DNA of 64,000 nucleotides from a virus (IMGVR_UViG_3300050821_018098); one strand, 5' to 3'. Positions 4,558-13,461 are shown, counted from the stretch's first letter. Notes: generated by a model from the letters alone, not told the origin. A program made the numbers and translations.

Positions 4558-6342
4558 ATGAATCAAAACATTCAACTTGACAGTGCAAAATCTGTCAAAA
4601 AATGGTCAAAAATTCTCGAGTCAATCGGAATTAACGCTACACCTAGAAATGCTGAAAAAATTGAGTGGATGTCTGAGTATGCAGAATATCACAACATCAA
4701 TGCAAAAAAAGGTTTAGTACAAGAAAACACAGGTTATTCTAACTTAGGTAACTTAACTGGTATGGGTGCAGTAGTATCACCTGGTGTTAACGTTACACCT
4801 GGTCAAACTGGTGCTTACACTAGCTTAGGTCAAGCAACTGGTGCTGGTTCTGGTGACTTCGGTCAACAATTGTTACCAATCGCTATGAAAATCGCTGGTC
4901 AAACTATCGGTCTTGATCTTGTTGGTGTAAAACCATCACCTGGTCCAGTTATCGATCTTATGTATGTAGACTTTAAATATGATGATGGTCCTACAAATGA
5001 TCAAAACTATGTTCCAGTAGTTTTCAAAATCGCTACAACTGCTGCTGATACTAATAGTGTTAATCTTAACGCTATGATAGCTGAATTAAATGCTATACTT
5101 ACAGCTAATTTAATACTACAAACTTCTGGTGGTTTGTCTAGTAGAGTTTGGGTAACATTACCTGCTAACCCAACAGGAAATCAAGGTGGTAACAGAGCTG
5201 GTGGTGCTTTATCTTCAGTACTTTCTGAACCTGCTACTAAAACTGGTGTTCTTGAATTCCTTGGATTCTCAAGAATTGATGGTTTACCAATGTTCCGTGC
5301 TTACAGAACAACGAATGCTTCGTCAATGGGACAATTCTATTTCGATATCACAGCTAATACTTTCGGTACAACTGAAACTGTTAAAAATGCTTTCGAAACT
5401 GGATCGTTCGCTTCTACGTCAGGTTCTGCTGATGGTCTAATAGGTGGTTTTGCAACAAATACTGTCTTGATAGAACTTATCTCAGCTCTTGAAGATCACA
5501 TTCCTGGATTCGTATCTAACTGGAATAAAGATTATGGTATGCCACGTGAACAAGATGATACTACTTATCCAGGTATTATCGCTCCAAGTGTATCTGTAAA
5601 AAGAATAACAGTTGGTTCTATCGAAGTAACTTCAGCTCTTAAAAGAACTGAAATTGAAGATATCAAAGCTCAAACTGGAATGGATATCGTTCAAAAACTA
5701 GAAAGCGTACTTGTTAATGAGTTGTCACAAACAATTTCTAAACAAATCGTTACTAAAGTATACGCAATGGGTAATCTTAACAGATCAACTCTTCCAACTA
5801 ACACTAGTGGGTACACAATGTTCGACTTCGACGTTGATAGTTACTTCGGTGGTGGTACTGCTCCAGCAGGAGAGACTACTCAGTCTGCACAAAGAAAGCT
5901 TATCACTAAAATTGATGCTGCTTCTAACTACATTGCAACTGAAGGTCGTGTTGGACCAGCTACTTTTGCTGTAACTAACGGTAAACTTGCTGCTGCTCTT
6001 AAAACTGCTGCTGGTTTCATTATCAACCCTATTGAGTCTAAACTTAACGCACCAGGACAATTATATCCTCTAGGTACAATTGGTGGATTAACTATTTATG
6101 TTGACCCATACCAAAAATACACTAATGATGTAATTTTACTTGGACGTAAAAACAATCCTGATCAACCAGGTATTATTTTCATACCTTACTTGATGGCTCA
6201 ATCAGTAAACTTGATTTCTGAAGCTACTTTTGGACCACGCATGATGCTCCGTTCAAGATACGCTATCGGTGAACTTGGATGGTATCCACAAAAACAGTAT
6301 ATGACTGTTAAAGTTAACGATACAAAAGGTTACTTAGTGTAG
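4558..6342 (+). CDS. gp23: major capsid protein (T4 gp23-like)
   Basis: KKWSKILES N-terminus, LLPIAMKIAGQTIGLDLVGVKP, IYVDPY, GIIFIPYL, PRMMLRSRYA; low codon third-position diversity typical of a highly expressed gene. Confidence 0.95.
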   Translation: MNQNIQLDSAKSVKKWSKILESIGINATPRNAEKIEWMSEYAEYHNINAKKGLVQENTGYSNLGNLTGMGAVVSPGVNVTPGQTGAYTSLGQATGAGSGDFGQQLLPIAMKIAGQTIGLDLVGVKPSPGPVIDLMYVDFKYDDGPTNDQNYVPVVFKIATTAADTNSVNLNAMIAELNAILTANLILQTSGGLSSRVWVTLPANPTGNQGGNRAGGALSSVLSEPATKTGVLEFLGFSRIDGLPMFRAYRTTNASSMGQFYFDITANTFGTTETVKNAFETGSFASTSGSADGLIGGFATNTVLIELISALEDHIPGFVSNWNKDYGMPREQDDTTYPGIIAPSVSVKRITVGSIEVTSALKRTEIEDIKAQTGMDIVQKLESVLVNELSQTISKQIVTKVYAMGNLNRSTLPTNTSGYTMFDFDVDSYFGGGTAPAGETTQSAQRKLITKIDAASNYIATEGRVGPATFAVTNGKLAAALKTAAGFIINPIESKLNAPGQLYPLGTIGGLTIYVDPYQKYTNDVILLGRKNNPDQPGIIFIPYLMAQSVNLISEATFGPRMMLRSRYAIGELGWYPQKQYMTVKVNDTKGYLV

Positions 6343-6362
6343 TCTGTATTATTAATACAAAT

Positions 6363-6398
6363 AAAAAACCTGTTCATTTATTTGAACAGGTTTTTTTT
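6363..6398. terminator. bidirectional intrinsic terminator (MCP / CYTH convergent)
   Basis: AAAAAACCTGTTCA-tttatt-TGAACAGGTTTTTTTT. Confidence 0.85.
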
Positions 6399-6421
6399 AT
6401 GTTTTGTTATATTTAGCTTCC

Positions 6422-6934
6422 TTATGCATCAAAACCTTTAAATATTGTGGCCAGATTAATGTTATTAAATTCTGGATGCTCTGTGATCTCCATTACGATA
6501 TTATCTCTTAAAAGGGCTGGAATCTCAAAACTATGATCGATTGAAGGAAGTTCTATTTCTGCTATAATTAATGTAACATTACGGAATACATCAATTTCCC
6601 ATATTAAATCTCCTGTTTCAGGGAATTTAAATTTATGTCTGCTTTTAGTAATATAAGTTGAAGCCTCTTTATAAAGATTTTCAAATTCTTCTGAAGTTAT
6701 TTCTTTTTCATTTTCCTCTCTTACTCCAGGACTAACATCTTTCTTTTCTGTATAGGTAAAAACAACTTTAGAATCATCCATAGAACTTTCTTCTCTTACT
6801 CTACGAGATATACCTTCATCACTGGATAAATAAAATTGAAGTATATTTGTTGAATCAACATAGAATTCTTTAGAGGCTGGGTCAAGACTTTTAAGTAAAA
6901 ATTTTCTTTCTATTTCGATACCATTTTTATTCAT
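6422..6934 (-). CDS. CYTH-domain (triphosphate tunnel metalloenzyme) protein
   Basis: IEIERKFLL (ExExK) N-terminal motif, R.RVR, WEIDVF, IIAEIEL, EFNNINLA. Confidence 0.88.
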   Translation of the reverse strand: MNKNGIEIERKFLLKSLDPASKEFYVDSTNILQFYLSSDEGISRRVREESSMDDSKVVFTYTEKKDVSPGVREENEKEITSEEFENLYKEASTYITKSRHKFKFPETGDLIWEIDVFRNVTLIIAEIELPSIDHSFEIPALLRDNIVMEITEHPEFNNINLATIFKGFDA

Positions 6935-7001
6935 AAAACTAATTTTCTTTATAAGTTATATCAGTTTTATCATCAAAGTTTTTATTGAATATCATAATAT
7001 G

Positions 7002-7083
7002 TAGCGGTAGAGGGACTCGAACCCTCCGTAGTAAACCTGGCTCCTTATGAGGAAGCTCCGATGCCATCTCCGGTCATACCGCT
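7002..7083 (-). tRNA. tRNA-Met/Ile2 (CAU), atypical 13-nt variable region
   Basis: Acceptor AGCGGTA/TACCGCT, anticodon arm GCTTC-CTCATAA-GGAGC, T arm GAGGG-TTCGAGT-CCCTC; D stem only CCG/CGG. Confidence 0.8.
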
Positions 7084-7095
7084 ATTTTTTAATTG

Positions 7096-7170
7096 TTTTC
7101 CCAGGAGGATTCGAACCTAAACCATTAAATGATCCAAAATCATTTGTGATGCCAATTACACTATGGGAAA
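7096..7170 (-). tRNA. tRNA-Gln (UUG)
   Basis: Acceptor TTTCCCA/TGGGAAA, anticodon arm AATGA-TTTTGGA-TCATT, T loop TTCGAAT; T stem pairs fully only with a TTT bulge (GG-ttt-AGG/CCTCC). Confidence 0.85.
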
Positions 7171-7182
7171 ATATATAAAAAC

Positions 7183-7220
7183 AAAAAAACCCGACCAACT
7201 ATAAAAGTTGACCGGGTTTT
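7183..7220 (-). terminator. attenuator terminator upstream of the tRNA-Gln/Met pair
   Basis: Minus-strand RNA ACCCGGUCAACU-uuuau-AGUUGGUCGGGU-UUUUUU; 12 bp including two G-U pairs that form only on the minus strand. Confidence 0.85.
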
Positions 7221-7242
7221 AATATTTTTGTTATTTCAAATA

Positions 7243-7314
7243 TTAAGCAAAACTTTCCCAGTCAACCATTGGTTGTTGCTGAGCCTGCATATTATTTGAA
7301 ATTAATTTTTTCAT
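7243..7314 (-). CDS. leader peptide MKKLISNNMQAQQQPMVDWESFA
   Basis: 23-codon ORF read by hand; Gln/Met block ATG CAG GCT CAG CAA CAA CCA ATG; lies directly before the terminator and tRNA-Gln/Met; TATATAA motif 13 nt upstream. Confidence 0.8.
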   Translation of the reverse strand: MKKLISNNMQAQQQPMVDWESFA

Positions 7315-7572
7315 CTTAGATTATATATCAGAAAATTTCTGTTTGTTTTAGCAAAATTAGTAATTTATTTCATTTTATCAAAATATTCTTTAAATAATAT
7401 TCACGCATTTTATCGAATCCATCAATTAAAGTATTCCAGGAATGAATAAGTTCAAAGTTTATTTTCTCATTTACTATAGAAGGAATATACTTAAAATCTA
7501 TATTAGACCAATTATCACCTAAGAAGTATTGAAAGCATTCTTCATCAAACTTATTTCTTACAAACTGATATC

Positions 7573-8856
7573 TCATACTTTAATCTTTTGATCTTTGATT
7601 TTACTATAGATGACTTCCATTATCATACCAATCTGAGCATGATCTACGATATCATCTTTGAATAGGTCTTTTAGTTGTTTAAATTCAACGTAAGTACGTT
7701 CTGTTTCTTCGGTCACACCAAACACCTTTCCTTTGACAGACTTCTTTATATCAGCTAAATCATCATCAGATAGCTCAAGACCAAATAGAGCGTTCTTATG
7801 TATTGATAAAGTAGAAACTAACTGTCTTCTTCCAAAGAATTCTAAATCATATGGTTCAACAGTTAAACCAGTTTCTTCTTTTATCTCTTTAACTATTATT
7901 TCCTGAGGATCTTTACTTGAGAAACTAGAACCACCTGGATTTTCGTAAACATAAATATCTCCATTATTTACTGGAGATCTGAATTCCTTAACAAGAACAA
8001 TATCACTGTTCCACATATCTTCTTGATCAATATGATACATTACTACTGAAGATAAATTGAATCTGGATAGAATTATTTCATTATCTTTATACCGGTCCTC
8101 AGCTTTTATCCATACTTTAACCCACATAGACCATAAGAATAGAATATTTTTATCTGGCCCAACATAATACTTCCATAATACATTTGCATCATGAAGTTCA
8201 TCACCGGCTTTCTCTTGATTTTTATACCATTCAATAAATGTGTCAGAATTCCAAATATCCAAGGGTACAAATCTCTCAGCACCTGTTCTTTTAAATGTAT
8301 ATTTATCTTTCTTTAAAAGTTCTTTATATTTATCAATAACATATTGAAGAGTATTTTCGAGAGTTTTAAAGGCTGGTATATTGTATTTCTCAGCATAAAA
8401 TTCTTGATACCTTACTTTCTCAGCATCTTTAGGACATCCAAGTACAAGTTTTTCTGGAGCCTGACCTTTCCAATAACCCCATTCATCGTTGGTAGTGAAT
8501 CCTGGAAGTTTAACTAAATCTCTTGGTATCCAAAAAAGGATTACATCAGCTATTCTCAAACCTTCTTCTTCCCATTCAATCTGATCCTCATATTCATTTT
8601 TAAATTCACCACTTGAATCTTCCGGAATAAGAACAGCACCAGTAAATCCTTTTTTCTTAAGATATTCTACAGCTTCAGATCTCCAGGATTTAGGTGTTTT
8701 TTTATTTTCTTCAGATCTATAAGTAGGACCAGCAAGAAATACAGTGAATTCAGTTGTTTTAGGTAATTCCTGGTTACTGTAATATACTTTTAATTTTCCA
8801 GAACTATTATCTTCATTAATACTTTGATAAGTATCAGATTTTTTGAAATACTTCAT
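7573..8856 (-). CDS. nucleoside 2-deoxyribosyltransferase-like domain fused to a Nudix hydrolase
   Basis: N-terminal VFLAGPT..SWR..A, QIEWEEEGL..ADVILFWIPR..LPGFTTNDEWG; C-terminal Nudix box PGGS..QEIIVKEIKEETGL. Confidence 0.8.
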   Translation of the reverse strand: MKYFKKSDTYQSINEDNSSGKLKVYYSNQELPKTTEFTVFLAGPTYRSEENKKTPKSWRSEAVEYLKKKGFTGAVLIPEDSSGEFKNEYEDQIEWEEEGLRIADVILFWIPRDLVKLPGFTTNDEWGYWKGQAPEKLVLGCPKDAEKVRYQEFYAEKYNIPAFKTLENTLQYVIDKYKELLKKDKYTFKRTGAERFVPLDIWNSDTFIEWYKNQEKAGDELHDANVLWKYYVGPDKNILFLWSMWVKVWIKAEDRYKDNEIILSRFNLSSVVMYHIDQEDMWNSDIVLVKEFRSPVNNGDIYVYENPGGSSFSSKDPQEIIVKEIKEETGLTVEPYDLEFFGRRQLVSTLSIHKNALFGLELSDDDLADIKKSVKGKVFGVTEETERTYVEFKQLKDLFKDDIVDHAQIGMIMEVIYSKIKDQKIKV

Positions 8857-8949
8857 TTTATAATTTTGATTTATAAAGTATATAAGATAAATGATAAAAG
8901 TTTTGAAGTAATTAGTATCTTTACACCAATAACAGTTAATATATAAGTC

Positions 8950-8976
8950 ATGAAAAATCTAAATTATGGACTCTAA
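8950..8976 (+). promoter_or_regulatory. 8-codon uORF (MKNLNYGL) ending inside a 9-bp hairpin just before the next start codon
   Basis: ACTCTAAGT (8970-8978) / ACTTAGAGT (8988-8996) perfect inverted repeat; next ATG at 9000. Confidence 0.4.
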
Positions 8977-8999
8977 GTAAAAAATTAACTTAGAGTAAA

Positions 9000-9686
9000 A
9001 TGAAAAAAAGAAACAAGCAATATCTTCGTGAGAAGGAATATTTGCGTTTAAAAAAAGCATCCGATGATAATTGGGATGCTCAAAGAAATTTAGGTTGGAT
9101 TCAACTTGATGAACCTCTCCATACAGGTTATACAGCTAAACTAGTTCTCAGGTCTGATATTGCTAATAGAGAAGATGCTTGGATTTTTCAAACAATCATC
9201 GATAATTACAGTAGCAGTTCTTATGCTAAAAGATTAAGGGATCTTGATTTTTCAAAAAAAGATATCAAATCATATCGTATTTATGGTAGGCCACATGTGT
9301 ATAGTATAAGTGAAAATACATATAACTCAATGAATCCACAAATCAAAAAATGGTTTCAAAAACTATCATTTACTTCCTCATGGGCAGGCGAACGTTATTC
9401 TTGTGATGTACCAAATTTCTTTTTTGAAATTTCAATAGAGAAATATTACACAACTAAAATAAGAATATTTGATGAAGTTCTTCAACAAGAAGCAGCAGAG
9501 ATAAAAGCTACAATTGAACATAAATTCTATATAGAAAATTGTAGATTTTATAATGGTCGTAGAATGAGAAGAATTTTGAATAATATACAAAGGAATAAAT
9601 CTAAAATGAAAATGAATCATATTATTGATAGTGATGAGGATTATATCTTTGAGGATAATTATAAAAATGCTTCCGGGTATTGGTAG
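9000..9686 (+). CDS. basic hypothetical protein between the two tRNA operons
   Basis: 228-aa ORF; no assignable motif. Confidence 0.6.
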   Translation: MKKRNKQYLREKEYLRLKKASDDNWDAQRNLGWIQLDEPLHTGYTAKLVLRSDIANREDAWIFQTIIDNYSSSSYAKRLRDLDFSKKDIKSYRIYGRPHVYSISENTYNSMNPQIKKWFQKLSFTSSWAGERYSCDVPNFFFEISIEKYYTTKIRIFDEVLQQEAAEIKATIEHKFYIENCRFYNGRRMRRILNNIQRNKSKMKMNHIIDSDEDYIFEDNYKNASGYW

Positions 9687-9901
9687 AATTAATATATAAT
9701 AGAAATAATATTTTTTATGATTAAATTTAGAATAAAGAGTATACTGATGATATCAGCAATTTTGGTTATTGCTTTAGCTTTAATATTTCTAATACATATT
9801 TTTAGTCTTCCACCTATATTAGTAGGTGTAGTTTTTATATTTACTTTTGTTGCAGTAATATTTAACGAAAGTATATTTAAAATAAATATTAAAGAATAAA
9901 T

Positions 9902-9933
9902 TTTGGTTATATGAAAACTTTCTACTACTTTTG
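9902..9933 (+). promoter_or_regulatory. Bacteroidota-type housekeeping promoter (-33 TTTG / -7 TAnnTTTG)
   Basis: TTTG 9902-9905, 20-nt spacer, TACTTTTG 9926-9933; similar sites at 12847-12877, 25782-25811 and 49446-49476. Confidence 0.6.
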
Positions 9934-9987
9934 ACGTATCAATACAAAAGGAAGATATTTGTCTTCATATATAAGTTAAGAAAAACA

Positions 9988-10086
9988 ATGAACTTGAACA
10001 ATAACATATCTACAACCACTACGAATAGATGGCATCGTCGTACAAGAACCTCTCAAGGGTTGCTTAGTGGTCATGGTATGTTGTAA
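9988..10086 (+). CDS. leader peptide MNLNNNISTTTTNRWHRRTRTSQGLLSGHGML
   Basis: 32-codon ORF read by hand; Thr run plus AGA TGG CAT CGT CGT ACA AGA (10027-10047); followed by a terminator and five tRNAs; TATATAA at 9968. Confidence 0.82.
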   Translation: MNLNNNISTTTTNRWHRRTRTSQGLLSGHGML

Positions 10087-10113
10087 TTTCTAGTTCTAAA
10101 GATAAAGGAATTC

Positions 10114-10159
10114 AAAATCCGCCTCGAAGCATAAAACCTTCGAGGCGGATTTTTGTTTA
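10114..10159 (+). terminator. attenuator terminator upstream of the His/Trp/Arg/Arg/Thr tRNA operon
   Basis: AAAATCCGCCTCGAAG-cataaaac-CTTCGAGGCGGATTTT then TGTTT; ends a few nt before tRNA-His. Confidence 0.88.
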
Positions 10160-10162
10160 TAT

Positions 10163-10234
10163 GGTGTCATTAGTTTAGTGGTAGAATTTAGGTTTGTGGA
10201 GCCTAAGACCAGGGTTCGATTCCCGATGACACCC
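10163..10234 (+). tRNA. tRNA-His (GUG) with encoded G-1
   Basis: GGTGTCAT/ATGACACC, anticodon arm TAGGT-TTGTGGA-GCCTA, T loop TTCGATT. Confidence 0.9.
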
Positions 10235-10238
10235 AAAT

Positions 10239-10317
10239 ACAGCAGCTGGCATTGGCGAGCCGAGCATTCTCCAAAAGTGTGTCGAAAGACTTGTAGATCC
10301 GACTTCTACCTGCTGTG
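10239..10317 (+). tRNA. tRNA-Trp (CCA) with class II-like variable arm
   Basis: ACAGCAG/CTGCTGT acceptor, GGC/GCC D stem, GCATT-CTCCAAA-AGTGT, variable hairpin GTC-GAAA-GAC, T arm GTAGA-TCCGACT-TCTAC. Confidence 0.8.
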
Positions 10318-10324
10318 CAAAAAT

Positions 10325-10397
10325 ATTCCTGTAGTTCAATTGGATAGAACAAATTACTACGGATAATTAGATAAAGGTTCGAGTCCTTTCGGGAATA
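10325..10397 (+). tRNA. tRNA-Arg (ACG)
   Basis: ATTCCTG/CGGGAAT, AATTA-CTACGGA-TAATT, AAAGG-TTCGAGT-CCTTT. Confidence 0.93.
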
Positions 10398-10406
10398 CAA
10401 AAATAT

Positions 10407-10480
10407 TATCTTGTAGCTCAATTGAATAGAGCGATTGCCTTCTAAGCAGTAGGTTGCAGGTTTGAATCCTGCCAAGGTAA
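10407..10480 (+). tRNA. tRNA-Arg (UCU)
   Basis: TATCTTG/CAAGGTA, ATTGC-CTTCTAA-GCAGT, GCAGG-TTTGAAT-CCTGC. Confidence 0.92.
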
Positions 10481-10485
10481 CAAAT

Positions 10486-10558
10486 TCCGGAGTAGCTCAA
10501 TTGATGGAGCATCTGACTTGTAATCAGAAGGTTGAGGGTTTGATCCCCTTCTCCGGAT
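10486..10558 (+). tRNA. tRNA-Thr (UGU)
   Basis: TCCGGAG/CTCCGGA, TCTGA-CTTGTAA-TCAGA, GAGGG-TTTGATC-CCCTT. Confidence 0.93.
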
Positions 10559-10573
10559 CAAACGTATATAACT

Positions 10574-11749
10574 ATGAAAATAAATATCAACATATTAAAA
10601 GAAATTCCTAAGAACTTTGGTTCTGGATTATGTGTATATGGTAAACCTAGTGAAGAAGTTTCTTCATGGATAAACTATCACAATTTTGAAACCGAGTTAT
10701 CTGGAAGCTTCACTAATATAATAATACCAGAAGATTTAGATATTAATACAGCTTTTTACATTAACGAGCAGTATGAGTATATTGATGGGATTAGTCCAAA
10801 TCTCAATAAGTATACTCATTTAGGACATATATCTAACTTTGTATTAGCTAAAACTTTTCAAAAACTTGGTATAGGAAAACAATTTATCGCTAACCTCGGT
10901 GATACTTTGGAGGGTAATGTTAAAAAAGAAGATGCTTTAAAAGTTTATCAGGAAATATGTAACACTTTCGATTACAAAATTGATAAAATATTCTTTGCTT
11001 CTGAATTAGAATATACTGGTGAACTTTTAGAAAACGGACAAGGTGAATATGAAGGCACTAAAATATTTAACATAAATGATAAGAAATTGGTCGGAATTAA
11101 AAGTAATGGGGCTACATCATATTTTTATCAGGATGTAGCCCTGGCCTCTATACTAAACAGTAAAACTTTATACATGACAGGTTTGGAACAAGGTGAGCAT
11201 TTTAAATCTTTGAAAATATTATTTCCAAATGTTGAACATCTACCTCTTGGTTTAGTTATGGTAAAAGGCGAGAAAATGTCTTCTCGTTTAGGTAATGTGA
11301 TCTTATTTTCTGAGATCATAGATATGTTCAAAGAGAAATTTGGTGATAATGATAAGCTTGTATGGAATGTATTAGCAGGTTATATTTTAAAATCTATTCC
11401 TGGAACCAATAAAAACATTGATTTGGATCAATTGGATAATGTTAAGATGTCAGCCGGTTTATATTTGAGCTATACGTTGGCTAAATTAAAAAGTGCTGGA
11501 TTAGTTGTAAATGATATATCTGATTTCAATTCAGTTTTCTTAAAAATAAAAACATTGAAAGCAAAGAATAGTTTATCACCAAATATATTGTTTGAAGCTT
11601 TAGTGGAACAGGCTAAAAAGATAAGTGGTTTGTATGAGTTATATCAAATAAAAGGAAACGACGATAATCAAAAAATGTTCAACCCCTTGGCTGAGGACTT
11701 ATTATTTGGTATGAAACTATTAGGTCTTTATGATATAGACAAGGTGTAA
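10574..11749 (+). CDS. argS: compact arginyl-tRNA synthetase
   Basis: SPNLNKYTHLGH (HIGH), GLEQGEHF, KMSSRLGNVI (KMSKS), GLYLSYTLAKLKS anticodon-domain motif; directly follows two tRNA-Arg genes. Confidence 0.85.
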   Translation: MKININILKEIPKNFGSGLCVYGKPSEEVSSWINYHNFETELSGSFTNIIIPEDLDINTAFYINEQYEYIDGISPNLNKYTHLGHISNFVLAKTFQKLGIGKQFIANLGDTLEGNVKKEDALKVYQEICNTFDYKIDKIFFASELEYTGELLENGQGEYEGTKIFNINDKKLVGIKSNGATSYFYQDVALASILNSKTLYMTGLEQGEHFKSLKILFPNVEHLPLGLVMVKGEKMSSRLGNVILFSEIIDMFKEKFGDNDKLVWNVLAGYILKSIPGTNKNIDLDQLDNVKMSAGLYLSYTLAKLKSAGLVVNDISDFNSVFLKIKTLKAKNSLSPNILFEALVEQAKKISGLYELYQIKGNDDNQKMFNPLAEDLLFGMKLLGLYDIDKV

Positions 11750-11770
11750 AATATTCAACACCTTGTCTAT
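11735..11770. terminator. 13-bp hairpin between convergent argS and endolysin
   Basis: ATAGACAAGGTGT / ACACCTTGTCTAT perfect inverted repeat overlapping the argS stop; no clear T tract. Confidence 0.55.
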
Positions 11771-11780
11771 CATAAGTAAT

Positions 11781-12359
11781 TTATTTAGCTATAGAAGCTG
11801 TTGTAGGAGCTGCCTGTATAACGGATTTACATTTAACTACCCACATCTTTCTTTCATTAAGACCATTATAACCGCCATTAATTTTTTTAGTGATTGATAC
11901 TACATCATCTTTATCAGCAAAAACGTTGAGACCTTTTCTATTCCAGAACCAGCCTGCCACTAAACCATCCCATGGTTCATGTGCAACTAAATCAGGGTTT
12001 GTAACAAAATCTTGTCCAAATTCAGCTGATGCAGCTTTATAATTACCTTTTCCGGTTAATTGGAACCAACCTCGACCCCTGTATAAATATCCATCACCAT
12101 CATGTTCAGGAGTATTACCAAGATCTACTCTTGTATCATAAGCTAACTGAGCCGGAGTATTACCCCAAATCTCTGTTGAATATCTGAAAGCACCAGATTC
12201 ATGTAATACTTGGGCCAAGAAATGGCAAATTCTAAGAATAGTATTAATATTGTATTTTATAAATGTTTGATTTAAGGCATCTGTAATTGTTTGAAGTCTA
12301 GCATCATCGTAATGTGTTGGTACTATAATAGATGCTAACTGTTCTTTTGTAATAGACAT
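11781..12359 (-). CDS. GH19 (chitinase-like) endolysin
   Basis: HFLAQVLHESG, YRGRGWFQLTGKGNY, WFWNRKGLN, ITKKINGGYNGLNER. Confidence 0.92.
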   Translation of the reverse strand: MSITKEQLASIIVPTHYDDARLQTITDALNQTFIKYNINTILRICHFLAQVLHESGAFRYSTEIWGNTPAQLAYDTRVDLGNTPEHDGDGYLYRGRGWFQLTGKGNYKAASAEFGQDFVTNPDLVAHEPWDGLVAGWFWNRKGLNVFADKDDVVSITKKINGGYNGLNERKMWVVKCKSVIQAAPTTASIAK

Positions 12360-12485
12360 AAGAGAATTTTTGATTTCCTTTATCTATATTTTTAGATAAA
12401 TGTTTTTATTCCACAAATACATCAGTACCAATATTAAAACATAAGATAGTTTTGTTATATAACAATAAATGCTTATTATTGTAAT

Positions 12486-12851
12486 ATGAAACATTTCATG
12501 ATTCTTATCATCGGTATTATATTCACTACGGGATGTTATAAACCACCACAAAAAGTATCTTACATCGTGAAAGATACTATTTATGTTACTGTCATCGATA
12601 CGATATATTTACATCATTATGTAGATACTATAGTTGAAAGAATCATAATACCATATACAAGTATGATTACATCTATTGATAAAATATGTATACCTAATAA
12701 TAAACCATATTATTCAAAATTTTCTAAACTAGGTATAACTATAAACATACCTAAGAGAAAAACGCTGTCGGATTTTAGACCAGGGCTCCAGTATCATATT
12801 ATTATACCTAAACCAAAAGTAAAAAAACCAAAACATTCTTACGATTTTTGA
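12486..12851 (+). CDS. lipoprotein with DTIY repeats (spanin candidate)
   Basis: Signal peptide with lipobox TTGC; DTIY repeats; next to the endolysin. Confidence 0.4.
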   Translation: MKHFMILIIGIIFTTGCYKPPQKVSYIVKDTIYVTVIDTIYLHHYVDTIVERIIIPYTSMITSIDKICIPNNKPYYSKFSKLGITINIPKRKTLSDFRPGLQYHIIIPKPKVKKPKHSYDF

Positions 12852-13461
12852 AATCACAAAGAATTTTAGTAAATTTGATACAAAATTAAGAATAAAAAAA
12901 TGTCCACAAGTTTGTTATGCAATAATTGTAAATCACCTATACGTAAAAGTAACCAAGAAGAAGTTTATGAGAATAACTTTTTTTATAAAAATGATAATGG
13001 TCAACCTATATGCAAATATTGTGGACCCAAAAATTATTCGGATGATTTTGGATGGGTATTTATTGGTATGGTAATAATAGCCCTAATTGCTATAGTATTC
13101 ACAATCGTGTAAAATCATGAAAGAGGTAAAGGATCCTTGTTATCAAATCACAAAAAAAGTTAAAACTGTTTTATATACAGATGGTATGATAGAGGATTTT
13201 CCTTTAATTAAAAAGACTAGAGAACAAATTATCGAACTTATAACTCAGGCTCGTTTACAGAAGTATAACTCTTTGACTAAAGAAGAGTTGATTGAGAAGT
13301 TAATGAGAAAGAATGCTGTTAGAATAGAAAGTACAAAGAATGATGATCTGGAGGATTTAGTGGATAAACTTGTAGGATTCGGTCATATTATTAATGAACC
13401 TTGTCCATACAATGGTATTCATTGTTCCTTTGGTGATATAAATGGTTTAGTTTAAAAAATT

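What the first reader, a model, noticed from the sequence alone, without database searches (positions are those of the whole stretch)
6422..11749. Candidate new system: codon-matched leader-peptide attenuators controlling phage tRNA operons
Seen in sequence: two tRNA operons share one architecture (promoter motif, 23-32 codon leader ORF, strong intrinsic terminator, tRNA genes). In each, the leader carries a tight block of codons read by the tRNAs encoded downstream. Established: ribosome-mediated attenuation (trp, his, thr, pheST leaders) reads through a terminator when the ribosome stalls on starved codons, but the classic targets are biosynthesis or synthetase genes. Inference: the phage senses loss of specific charged host tRNAs, from starvation or anticodon-nuclease defences such as PrrC, PARIS or Cas13 collateral cleavage, and transcribes the matching replacement tRNAs plus ArgRS only on demand. 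I know of no description of this for phage tRNA genes, but I could not search the literature.
Basis: partly seen in the sequence, partly recalled or inferred. Interest (0 to 1): 0.95.

Follow-up and report, generated by a model that had tools for sequence, protein, structure and literature searches.

The report
Leader-peptide attenuators of phage tRNA operons
Both tRNA gene clusters of this large uncultured phage sit behind a tiny translated "test" gene written in the amino acids those tRNAs carry, followed by a transcription stop signal, so the phage probably makes these tRNAs (and an arginyl-tRNA-synthetase-like enzyme) only when ribosomes read those codons slowly, a control I could not find described for tRNA genes.

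Summary
The 166.9-kb record has two tRNA clusters. Each is preceded by a short ATG ORF (32 and 23 codons) and a strong intrinsic terminator that ends 8-15 nt before the first tRNA.

Leader A has the block TTTTNRWHRRTRT in front of tRNA-His, an atypical tRNA-Trp, two tRNA-Arg and tRNA-Thr. Leader B has MQAQQQPM in front of tRNA-Gln and an atypical tRNA(CAU). Each leader ranks first of 1371 small ORFs in the record for its tRNA set.

In four distantly related huge phages the same rule-based scan found 17 more units. Their leaders track their own tRNA arrays (202 cognate residues against 87±12 in permutations; 0 of 100,000 reached it).

Unit B has a textbook 1:2 / 2:3 / 3:4 switch, and 14 of 19 units have a significant antiterminator. 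Unit A does not; it has only a weak candidate.

The codon-level match cannot be separated from the phage's codon usage. The proposed link to anticodon nucleases is untested.

Seven literature searches found no description. This scan has noted the same design before in at least eight other phage genomes.

Verdict: ribosome-mediated attenuation applied to tRNA operons, a new variant of a known mechanism. Confidence about 0.75. No expression data were available.

The parts
9926..9974 (+). Candidate promoter / 5'-UTR motif of unit A (TACTTTTG ... ACAAA ... ATATATAA)
   Evidence: The same three-part motif lies upstream of leader B and of several relatives' leaders. It is not enriched significantly, so the promoter assignment is inference.
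9988..10086 (+). Leader ORF A, 32 codons
   Evidence: It ranks 1 of 1371 small ORFs for H/R/T/W content. It resembles the leader in front of the Thr/Asn/Arg array of LR756504.1.
10012..10050 (+). Control block A, TTTTNRWHRRTRT. 12 of 13 residues are carried by the downstream tRNAs. Codons 10027-10047 (AGA TGG CAT CGT CGT ACA AGA) sample all five tRNAs.
9990..10096 (+). Long hairpin enclosing leader A (1:2-like; possible pause or anti-antiterminator)
   Evidence: MFE fold of 9975-10165: -57.5 kcal/mol, z = -6.3 against shuffles.
10060..10078 (+). Weak candidate antiterminator strand of unit A (pairs imperfectly with 10116-10130)
   Evidence: Duplex energy -7.4 kcal/mol, no better than shuffles (z = +0.8). 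The masked-ribosome contrast is 0.67 against 0.36, shuffle p about 0.12-0.17. Not established.
10114..10161 (+). Intrinsic terminator A (16-bp stem, 8 G-C pairs, loop 8, U-run). It ends immediately before tRNA-His.
10163..10234 (+). tRNA-His(GTG)
   Evidence: ARAGORN; Rfam tRNA model, 50.3 bits.
10239..10318 (+). Atypical tRNA-Trp(CCA), 80 nt, long variable arm
   Evidence: ARAGORN calls it only at -ps90. There is no Rfam hit. Relatives carry a 91-nt tRNA-Trp.
10325..10398 (+). tRNA-Arg(ACG)
10407..10481 (+). tRNA-Arg(TCT)
10486..10559 (+). tRNA-Thr(TGT)
10574..11749 (+). Short (391 aa), divergent ArgRS-like gene. It starts 14 nt after the last tRNA, and one search lists no terminator-like site in that gap.
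   Evidence: TIGR00456 argS E = 1.6e-10, far below the cut-off. A profile of homologues hits ArgRS structures, best E = 1.8e-8. 454 homologues were found, many on huge-phage contigs. H82/G84/H85 and K234/S237 are invariant.
7321..7359 (-). Candidate promoter / 5'-UTR motif of unit B (TAATTTTG ... ACAAAC ... ATATATAA)
   Evidence: Inference only.
7243..7314 (-). Leader ORF B, 23 codons
   Evidence: It ranks 1 of 1371 for Q and for Q+M. A Q-rich leader also precedes tRNA-Gln in a relative (L050/L011).
7267..7290 (-). Control block B, MQAQQQPM (ATG CAG GCT CAG CAA CAA CCA ATG)
7233..7302 (-). 1:2 hairpin of unit B. CAACC in the Gln codons pairs with GGTTG.
   Evidence: MFE fold, z = -6.4.
7256..7267 (-). 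Antiterminator strand of unit B (region 2, GGTTGACTGGGA). It pairs with the terminator 5' arm at 7219-7207.
   Evidence: Duplex energy -16.9 kcal/mol, z = -5.3, 0 of 300 shuffles as good. Masked-ribosome contrast 0.84 against 0.03; 0 of 150 spacer shuffles reached it.
7177..7220 (-). Intrinsic terminator B (15-bp stem, 6 G-C pairs, loop 5, U-run)
7095..7170 (-). tRNA-Gln(TTG)
7002..7083 (-). Probable tRNA(CAT), 82 nt, with an enlarged variable region
   Evidence: A hand-built cloverleaf scores -23.3 kcal/mol. It has the same architecture as an ARAGORN-called 84-nt tRNA-Met at L055:5714-5797, with different but still complementary stems. Default ARAGORN and Rfam do not call it.
6422..6934 (-). 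CYTH-domain protein gene, downstream of the unit B tRNAs
   Evidence: Pfam CYTH, E = 8e-4, below the cut-off. Co-transcription is inferred from position only.

Best explanation
Both units are ribosome-mediated (leader-peptide) transcription attenuators that gate tRNA operons.

Proposed sequence of events:
1. Transcription starts upstream of the leader.
2. A ribosome translates the leader while RNA polymerase approaches the terminator.
3. If the codons of the control block (Thr/Arg/Trp/His in A; Gln/Met in B) are decoded quickly, the ribosome runs onto the strand that lies 1-5 codons after the block. The terminator hairpin then forms, and transcription stops a few bases before the first tRNA.
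4. If decoding is slow because the matching charged tRNAs are scarce, the ribosome waits on the block. The downstream strand pairs with the terminator's 5' arm (antiterminator). The polymerase reads through and makes the tRNAs, plus the ArgRS-like enzyme in A and the CYTH protein in B.

The new tRNAs speed up decoding, which closes a negative feedback loop.

Shown here: the anatomy, the match between leaders and tRNAs, and the alternative pairing in unit B and in most related units.

Inferred: that the leaders are translated, that read-through responds to tRNA supply, and where transcripts start.
For: 1. There is no room for a promoter between terminator and tRNA. The hairpins end 8-15 nt before the first tRNA, so the tRNAs can only be made by read-through.
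2. Both leaders are the top-ranked small ORFs of the record for their own tRNA set, each 1 of 1371.
3. The design recurs independently. A composition-blind scan of tRNA-rich stretches of four huge phages, plus other relatives, found 21 tRNA-proximal terminators. 19 of them have a short ORF ending about 26-36 nt before the G+C core.
4. Leader control blocks mirror their arrays:
   - YNAYQQYNQNQNQ precedes Asn, Tyr and Gln tRNAs.
   - IAMIIRMRIIR precedes Arg, Ile and Met tRNAs.
   - LSLSLSLSLSLS precedes Leu and Ser tRNAs.
   - IAIVEIAVIGGAEEGV precedes Glu, Ala, Ile, Val and Gly tRNAs.
5. Permuting leaders among arrays gave 148 cognate residues against 63 +/- 10. With arrays extended it gave 202 against 87 +/- 12. 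Without the window units it gave 185 against 82. With one unit per look-alike pair it gave 132 against 53. None of 100,000 permutations reached the observed value in any version.
6. With a stricter terminator rule, 18 of 18 tRNA-proximal terminators have only a short ORF ending 12-50 nt upstream, against 26 of 131 other terminators.
7. Complementarity between the leader and the terminator 5' arm beats dinucleotide shuffles at p <= 0.05 in 14 of 19 units (mean z = -2.7). The complementary segment always lies just after the control block. Its sequence differs between units while pairing is kept.
8. With a ribosome footprint masked, the predicted chance that the 5' arm is sequestered stays high while the A site is on the control block. 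It collapses within a few codons after the block.
9. Unit B has all three helices (1:2, 2:3, 3:4), and the 2:3 pairing is significant.
Against: - Unit A has no significant antiterminator: z = +0.8, p about 0.12-0.17. Its terminator is also the strongest of the set, so A might switch poorly or by another route.
- No transcript or ribosome data could be obtained.
- Promoters are not established, so the upstream genes may read into the leaders.
- The codon-level match adds little beyond the amino-acid match. AGA, CGT, CAT, CAA and ACA are simply the phage's preferred codons, and two ACC codons in leader A are not standard reads for tRNA-Thr(UGU).
- Leader A keeps five Asn codons although the record has no tRNA-Asn.
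- Related units share ancestry, so they are not fully independent. The test with look-alike pairs collapsed is still extreme.
Confidence: 0.75

Rival explanations
1. The hairpins are ordinary terminators that end the upstream operons. The tRNAs are made by constitutive leak-through. The short ORFs are incidental or encode small peptides with no sensing role.
For: No terminator-like site lies between the upstream genes (9717-9899 on +; 7576-7370 on -) and the leaders, so read-in from those genes is possible. Promoters of the units are unproven. Unit A lacks a supported antiterminator.
Against: This cannot explain why leader composition follows the tRNA content of each array across 19 units (0 of 100,000 permutations). 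It cannot explain why a short ORF precedes 18 of 18 such terminators against 20% elsewhere. It cannot explain why the segment after the control block is complementary to the terminator arm.
Confidence: 0.08
2. The units are translation-coupled attenuators, but they sense general translation capacity or transcription-translation coupling (ribosome availability, host shut-off) and not the supply of specific tRNAs.
For: In most units the antiterminator is also predicted to form when no ribosome is present (arm-paired probability 0.5-1.0). Any failure to translate the leader would therefore give read-through. In unit A the switch is weak.
Against: A general sensor would not need leaders whose amino-acid content changes with each array. 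It would also not need control blocks that end exactly where the footprint begins to cover the antiterminator strand.
Confidence: 0.1
3. The leader RNA senses tRNAs directly by codon-anticodon pairing without translation, as a T-box riboswitch does.
For: The regulated genes are tRNAs and a synthetase-like gene, which is the usual territory of T-boxes. Runs of cognate codons could in principle bind anticodons.
Against: Rfam found no T-box or other riboswitch family at E <= 1. The cognate codons are always in one frame, between an ATG and a stop codon at a fixed distance from the terminator. The leaders are about 100 nt and lack a Stem I or T-box-like architecture.
Confidence: 0.04

Closest known systems
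Leader-peptide transcription attenuators of amino-acid biosynthetic operons (trpL, hisL, leuL, thrL, ilvL, pheL of enterobacteria; textbook knowledge)
   Same: A short ORF with a run of regulatory codons, an intrinsic terminator, and a mutually exclusive antiterminator whose formation depends on where the ribosome sits. Unit B also has a 1:2 hairpin.
   Different: The regulated products are tRNA genes, not biosynthetic enzymes. The leaders are multi-input: up to 4-6 amino acids listed in one block. The element is in a phage. In many units the antiterminator, not the terminator, is predicted to form without translation. There is no sequence membership: Rfam His_leader scores 28.6 bits against a gathering score of 49.
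pheST (pheM) leader-peptide attenuator of E. coli phenylalanyl-tRNA synthetase (textbook knowledge)
   Same: Leader codons for the amino acid of the synthetase encoded downstream. Unit A has four Arg codons in front of an ArgRS-like gene.
   Different: Five tRNA genes lie between the terminator and the synthetase-like gene. The leader also lists Thr, His and Trp. The enzyme is a short, divergent ArgRS relative of unknown activity.
T-box riboswitches (tRNA-sensing leaders of aaRS and amino-acid genes in Firmicutes)
   Same: A terminator/antiterminator decision that reports on tRNA status, upstream of translation-related genes.
   Different: A T-box binds uncharged tRNA directly and is not translated. 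Here there is an ORF and no T-box fold or Rfam match.
Units noted earlier by this scan in other phage genomes (e1-3258323, e1-1678903, e1-3450868, e1-4038560, e1-1930842 and others; AI notes, unpublished)
   Same: The same design: a mini-ORF listing the downstream tRNAs, followed by a terminator.
   Different: They are in other genomes. I did not re-test those loci. The relatives I tested (G001-G004, LR756504.1) were chosen independently, through the ArgRS-like gene.

Membership tests
Leader-peptide (ribosome-mediated) transcription attenuator | A short translatable ORF with a cluster of regulatory codons | tested here: met
   Leader A 9988-10086 has 12 of 13 cognate residues in its block. Leader B 7314-7243 has 6 of 8. 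Each ranks 1 of 1371 small ORFs. Translation itself was not shown.
Leader-peptide (ribosome-mediated) transcription attenuator | An intrinsic terminator between the leader and the regulated genes | tested here: met
   Stems of 16 bp and 15 bp with U-runs, ending 8-15 nt before the first tRNA.
Leader-peptide (ribosome-mediated) transcription attenuator | An antiterminator helix that excludes the terminator and is freed by a ribosome stalled on the regulatory codons | tested here: met
   Unit B: 7267-7256 pairs with 7219-7207, -16.9 kcal/mol, z = -5.3; masked-ribosome contrast 0.84 against 0.03, 0 of 150 shuffles reached it. 14 of 19 related units reach p <= 0.05.
Leader-peptide (ribosome-mediated) transcription attenuator | The same antiterminator feature, in unit A | tested here: inconclusive
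   The best duplex is -7.4 kcal/mol, z = +0.8. The contrast is 0.67 against 0.36, with shuffle p of 0.12-0.17.
Leader-peptide (ribosome-mediated) transcription attenuator | The regulatory codons correspond to the function of the regulated genes | tested here: met
   Leader composition tracks the downstream tRNA identities: 0 of 100,000 permutations reach the observed match.
Leader-peptide (ribosome-mediated) transcription attenuator | Read-through rises when the cognate charged tRNA is limiting | not testable with these tools
   This needs an experiment.
T-box riboswitch | Stem I with a specifier loop, and a conserved T-box sequence in the antiterminator bulge | tested here: not met
   No T-box match in Rfam at E <= 1 over 5000-13000. 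The folds show simple hairpins.
Rfam His_leader (RF00514) / Thr_leader (RF00506) | A score at or above the family's gathering threshold | tested here: not met
   His_leader scores 28.6 bits (threshold 49) at 10032-10155. The Thr_leader hit lies on the capsid-gene terminator at 6290-6400, at 28.6 bits (threshold 55).
Arginyl-tRNA synthetase (for the gene 10574-11749) | A full-length match to ArgRS models, with the class I signature motifs | tested here: inconclusive
   TIGR00456 scores 40 bits against a cut-off of 261.65, over residues 162-257 only. The homologue profile hits ArgRS structures, best E = 1.8e-8. HxGH-like H82/G84/H85 and KMSS-like K234/S237 are invariant. The protein has 391 aa, against about 570-600 for ArgRS.

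The most novel reading that the evidence does not exclude
The leaders act as inducible counter-defence sensors. When a host anticodon nuclease or host shut-off removes particular tRNAs, ribosomes stall on exactly those codons in the leader. The phage then switches on the matching replacement tRNAs, including its structurally atypical long-arm tRNAs, and a synthetase-like enzyme. On this reading the 'codon menus' are a widespread demand-driven control layer of viral tRNA arrays.
Probability: 0.2. Interest if true: 0.95.

Novelty: new variant of a known kind. Interest (0 to 1): 0.8.

Why it matters
Many large phages carry tRNA genes, but how and when these genes are expressed is mostly unknown.

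A leader peptide that lists the tRNAs behind it would mean that phages measure decoding speed codon by codon and make tRNAs on demand. That would extend a textbook mechanism, attenuation, to a new class of targets: the tRNAs themselves.

It would also give a simple sequence rule for which tRNAs belong to one regulatory unit. It would help to find unrecognised tRNAs, as happened here for two atypical ones. And it would provide compact, portable, multi-input sensors of tRNA availability that are easy to test with reporters.

It also makes the proposed link between phage tRNAs and host tRNA-cleaving defences directly testable.

Tried and rejected
- Close relatives of this phage for covariation analysis:
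  - Single-protein scans of IMG/VR with the ArgRS-like, CYTH and 228-aa proteins found nothing.
  - The closest ArgRS-like homologues (64% identity, L046 and L047) have no tRNAs upstream, so the context is not conserved at that distance.
- DNA searches of the 'phages' collection with both units matched only tRNA bodies and two huge-phage ArgRS-like genes.
- Classical antiterminator in unit A: a duplex search and constrained folds gave only a weak, non-significant pairing.
- Promoter motif: ACAAA-N-ATATATAA and TAnnTTTG are present upstream of both leaders. They are not significantly enriched in the record, and they are found upstream of only 8 of 19 leaders.
- Codon-level matching as separate evidence was rejected, because the leader's Arg, His and Gln codons equal the phage's preferred codons.
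- T-box and known leader families: there is no Rfam membership.
- Literature: seven full-text searches with varied terms found no description of attenuators in front of phage tRNA genes. Subscription-only papers were not searched.
Full report
WHAT IS THERE

The window is part of a 166.9-kb, 29% G+C phage record. It has a T4-type major capsid gene (Pfam Gp23). The nearest relatives of that gene are the 634-735-kb uncultured 'huge phage' records LR7565xx, at 48-55% identity. The record may therefore be a fragment of a larger genome.

All tRNAs of the record lie in the finding's span.

Unit A, on the + strand, consists of:
- a 32-codon ATG ORF at 9988-10086;
- 27 nt of spacer;
- a 16-bp hairpin with 8 G-C pairs at 10114-10153 and a U-run;
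- tRNA-His(GTG) from 10163;
- an 80-nt tRNA-Trp(CCA) with a long variable arm, which ARAGORN reports only at a slightly relaxed threshold and Rfam misses;
- tRNA-Arg(ACG), tRNA-Arg(TCT) and tRNA-Thr(TGT);
- 14 nt later, a 391-aa ArgRS-like gene.

Unit B, on the - strand, consists of:
- a 23-codon ORF at 7314-7243;
- a 15-bp hairpin at 7220-7186 with a U-run;
- tRNA-Gln(TTG);
- an 82-nt element at 7083-7002 that folds as a tRNA with anticodon CAT and an enlarged variable region;
- a CYTH-domain gene.

The CAT element has the same architecture as an ARAGORN-called 84-nt tRNA-Met in a relative (L055:5714-5797). Its stems differ from that tRNA but stay complementary.

The hairpins end 8-15 nt before the first tRNA. 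There is no room for a promoter after them, so the tRNAs must be made by read-through.

IS THE LEADER-tRNA MATCH MORE THAN CHANCE?

Leader A contains TTTTNRWHRRTRT. Twelve of these 13 residues are carried by the five downstream tRNAs. Seven consecutive codons (10027-10047) sample all five tRNAs. Leader B contains MQAQQQPM in front of tRNA-Gln and tRNA(CAU).

The record has 1371 ATG ORFs of 12-60 codons over its six frames. Leader A is the single best for H/R/T/W (12 of 13; the runner-up has 9). Leader B is the single best for Q (4 of 5) and for Q+M (6 of 8).

At the codon level the match adds little. AGA (67% of Arg codons), CGT (15%), CAT (81%), CAA (79%) and ACA (50%) are simply the phage's preferred codons. 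Two of the six Thr codons in leader A are ACC, which tRNA-Thr(UGU) does not read under standard wobble rules. So the match is solid for amino acids and uninformative for synonymous codons.

INDEPENDENT REPLICATION IN RELATIVES

The ArgRS-like protein belongs to a large family (454 hits, many on contigs of 100-700 kb). I used an alignment of it (A1) to fetch 45 IMG/VR loci. I then fetched the tRNA-rich stretches of four of those phages, which carry 20-62 tRNAs each.

I applied a rule that ignores composition:
- a G+C-core hairpin followed by at least 5 T in 9 nt, within 45 nt upstream of a tRNA;
- then the longest ATG ORF of 8-70 codons whose stop codon lies near the hairpin.

This found 21 such terminators among 248 tRNAs, nearly all at the first tRNA of a block. 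Nineteen of them had a 16-44-codon ORF ending about 26-36 nt before the G+C core.

The peptides mirror their arrays:
- YNAYQQYNQNQNQ lies before Asn, Asn, Tyr, Tyr, Gln, Gln, Gln.
- IAMIIRMRIIR lies before Arg, Ile, Met.
- LSLSLSLSLSLS lies before Leu/Ser arrays.
- IAIVEIAVIGGAEEGV lies before Glu, Ala, Ile, Val, Gly, Glu.
- PQFQFVVPF lies before Pro, Phe, Pro, Phe, Val.
- A leader rich in T, Y, Q, K, P and G lies before an array of exactly Gln, Lys, Pro, Gly, Tyr and Thr tRNAs.

Permuting leaders among arrays gave these results:

| Test | Observed cognate residues | Permutation mean ± sd | Permutations reaching observed |
|---|---|---|---|
| Strict blocks | 148 | 63 ± 10 | 0 of 100,000 |
| Arrays extended | 202 | 87 ± 12 | 0 of 100,000 |
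| Window units left out | 185 | 82 ± 12 | 0 of 100,000 |
| One unit per look-alike pair (n = 12) | 132 | 53 ± 10 | 0 of 100,000 |

With a stricter terminator rule, all 18 tRNA-proximal terminators have only a short ORF ending 12-50 nt upstream. Of 131 other terminators, 26 do, and 41 follow a normal long gene.

One of the four phages (G001) is identical over the tested 3.2 kb to GenBank LR756504.1, a deposited but unannotated 636-kb huge-phage genome. The design is therefore present, unremarked, in public records.

THE SWITCH

In unit B the fold gives a hairpin that encloses the Gln codons and the following strand (1:2; CAACC pairs with GGTTG). The terminator stands separately (3:4).

The strand GGTTGACTGGGA (7267-7256, codons 16-20) is complementary to the terminator's 5' arm (7219-7207). 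The duplex energy is -16.9 kcal/mol, against -7.0 on average for dinucleotide shuffles (z = -5.3). That is as stable as the terminator core.

Across the 19 units, the best duplex between leader and 5' arm beats shuffles at p <= 0.05 in 14 (mean z = -2.7). It always lies 1-5 codons after the control block. Its sequence differs from unit to unit while pairing is kept. This also explains the recurrent Ser-Gly / Gly-Leu residues after the blocks: they are the G-rich codons that pair with the CCCGG-type arms.

I then masked a ribosome footprint codon by codon in the nascent RNA with the 3' arm not yet made. The predicted probability that the 5' arm is sequestered stays high while the A site is anywhere up to the end of the control block. 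It collapses within a few codons after the block. For unit B it is 0.84 on the block and 0.03 at the stop codon, and none of 150 spacer shuffles gave that contrast.

In many units the antiterminator is also predicted to form without any ribosome. So the default may be read-through, and fast translation is what terminates. This differs from trp, where an untranslated leader terminates.

UNIT A IS THE WEAK POINT

Unit A has a very stable hairpin enclosing the whole leader, and the strongest terminator of the set. The best pairing of its 5' arm with the leader (10060-10078) is only -7.4 kcal/mol, no better than shuffles (z = +0.8).

The masked-ribosome profile goes in the expected direction: 0.36 with no ribosome, 0.67 on the block, 0.36 at the stop codon. 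It is not significant (p = 0.12-0.17).

The look-alike leader in LR756504.1/G001, which precedes a Thr, Asn, Thr, Arg array, does have a significant antiterminator (z = -3.6). Leader A also keeps five Asn codons although the record has no tRNA-Asn.

Unit A may thus be a partly decayed or differently wired copy. Its leader and terminator are certain. Its switch is not.

MECHANISM AND RIVALS

The best explanation is ribosome-mediated attenuation. Slow decoding of the listed codons holds the ribosome on the block, the antiterminator forms, and the tRNA operon is transcribed. Fast decoding lets the ribosome cover the antiterminator strand, and transcription ends before the first tRNA.

This gives negative feedback on the supply of exactly those tRNAs. 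In unit A it also gives pheST-like control of an ArgRS-like gene.

Three rivals fit the data less well:
- Plain operon-end terminators with incidental ORFs.
- A general sensor of translation capacity.
- A translation-independent sensor like a T-box.

The first and third rivals do not explain the frame-consistent ORFs. The first two do not explain leaders that change with each array. Rfam gave no riboswitch or T-box match.

COMPARISON WITH KNOWN SYSTEMS, AND NOVELTY

The logic and the parts are those of classical leader-peptide attenuators (trpL, hisL, pheL) and of pheST.

What differs:
- The targets are tRNA genes.
- The leaders are multi-input.
- The carrier is a phage.
- The default state is probably read-through.

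There is no sequence membership in any Rfam leader family. Seven full-text searches found no description of such control of phage tRNA genes. Subscription-only literature was not covered.

This scan has noted the same design before, in at least eight other phage genomes, and on this window in two companion notes. Those are unchecked AI notes. My tests used loci that I chose independently.

I rate it a new variant of a known kind, of high interest. This window adds a clean textbook example (unit B) and a problematic one (unit A).

LIMITS

- Promoters are unproven.
- Translation of the leaders is inferred.
- The folding results are thermodynamic predictions.
- The related units share ancestry.

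Noticed in passing
window 10239-10318 (+) and 7083-7002 (-); also L021:1-113 and 1081-1173, L023:2679-2769, L004:1874-2054, L055:5714-5797: tRNAs with long variable arms (80-93 nt) but anticodons CCA, CAT, GTT or TGT, which are not Leu, Ser or Tyr anticodons. They recur in this phage and its huge-phage relatives. The two in the window are missed by default ARAGORN and by the Rfam tRNA model. Which synthetase charges them is unknown.
   Followed up: partly
window 10574-11749 (+): A 391-aa, very divergent ArgRS-like protein that is about 180 residues shorter than ordinary ArgRS. It keeps invariant HxGH-like and KMSS-like motifs. It belongs to a family of more than 450 proteins found mostly on large phage contigs, often next to tRNA-Arg genes.
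   Followed up: partly
window 10154-10162 and 7185-7171; the same position in L052, L054, L055, L058, L059, L062, L065 and L066: The spacer between the terminator stem and the first tRNA is conserved in length (about 9-20 nt) and sequence (TTTTTTGTTTTATAT-like) across distant phages. This is more than a U-run alone needs. It may be an RNase P leader or a processing signal.
   Followed up: no
window 9991-10008 (leader A codons 2-7): Leader A keeps a run of Asn codons (N-L-N-N-N-I) although the record has no tRNA-Asn. The look-alike leader in LR756504.1 precedes an array that does contain tRNA-Asn. This suggests a relic of an ancestral larger array.
   Followed up: partly
L052:4188-4259 (G003, 374-kb IMG/VR phage): ARAGORN calls a tRNA with anticodon CTA (amber suppressor type) next to tRNA-Leu. 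This hints at TAG recoding in that relative. Several other calls have abnormal anticodon loops (shown as '???').
   Followed up: no
tRNA-rich stretches L048-L066 and the window's record: 26 of 131 terminator-like hairpins that are not next to a called tRNA also have only a short ATG ORF ending 12-50 nt upstream. Some may be further attenuators in front of unrecognised tRNAs or synthetase genes. For example, an aaRS-like C-terminus lies between tRNA-Thr and tRNA-Asn in L004/L067.
   Followed up: no
window 6363-6396: A strong two-way terminator hairpin lies between the capsid gene (+ strand, ends 6342) and the CYTH gene (- strand, ends 6422). It produced sub-threshold Rfam hits to Thr_leader and to small RNAs, which are not meaningful.
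   Followed up: no
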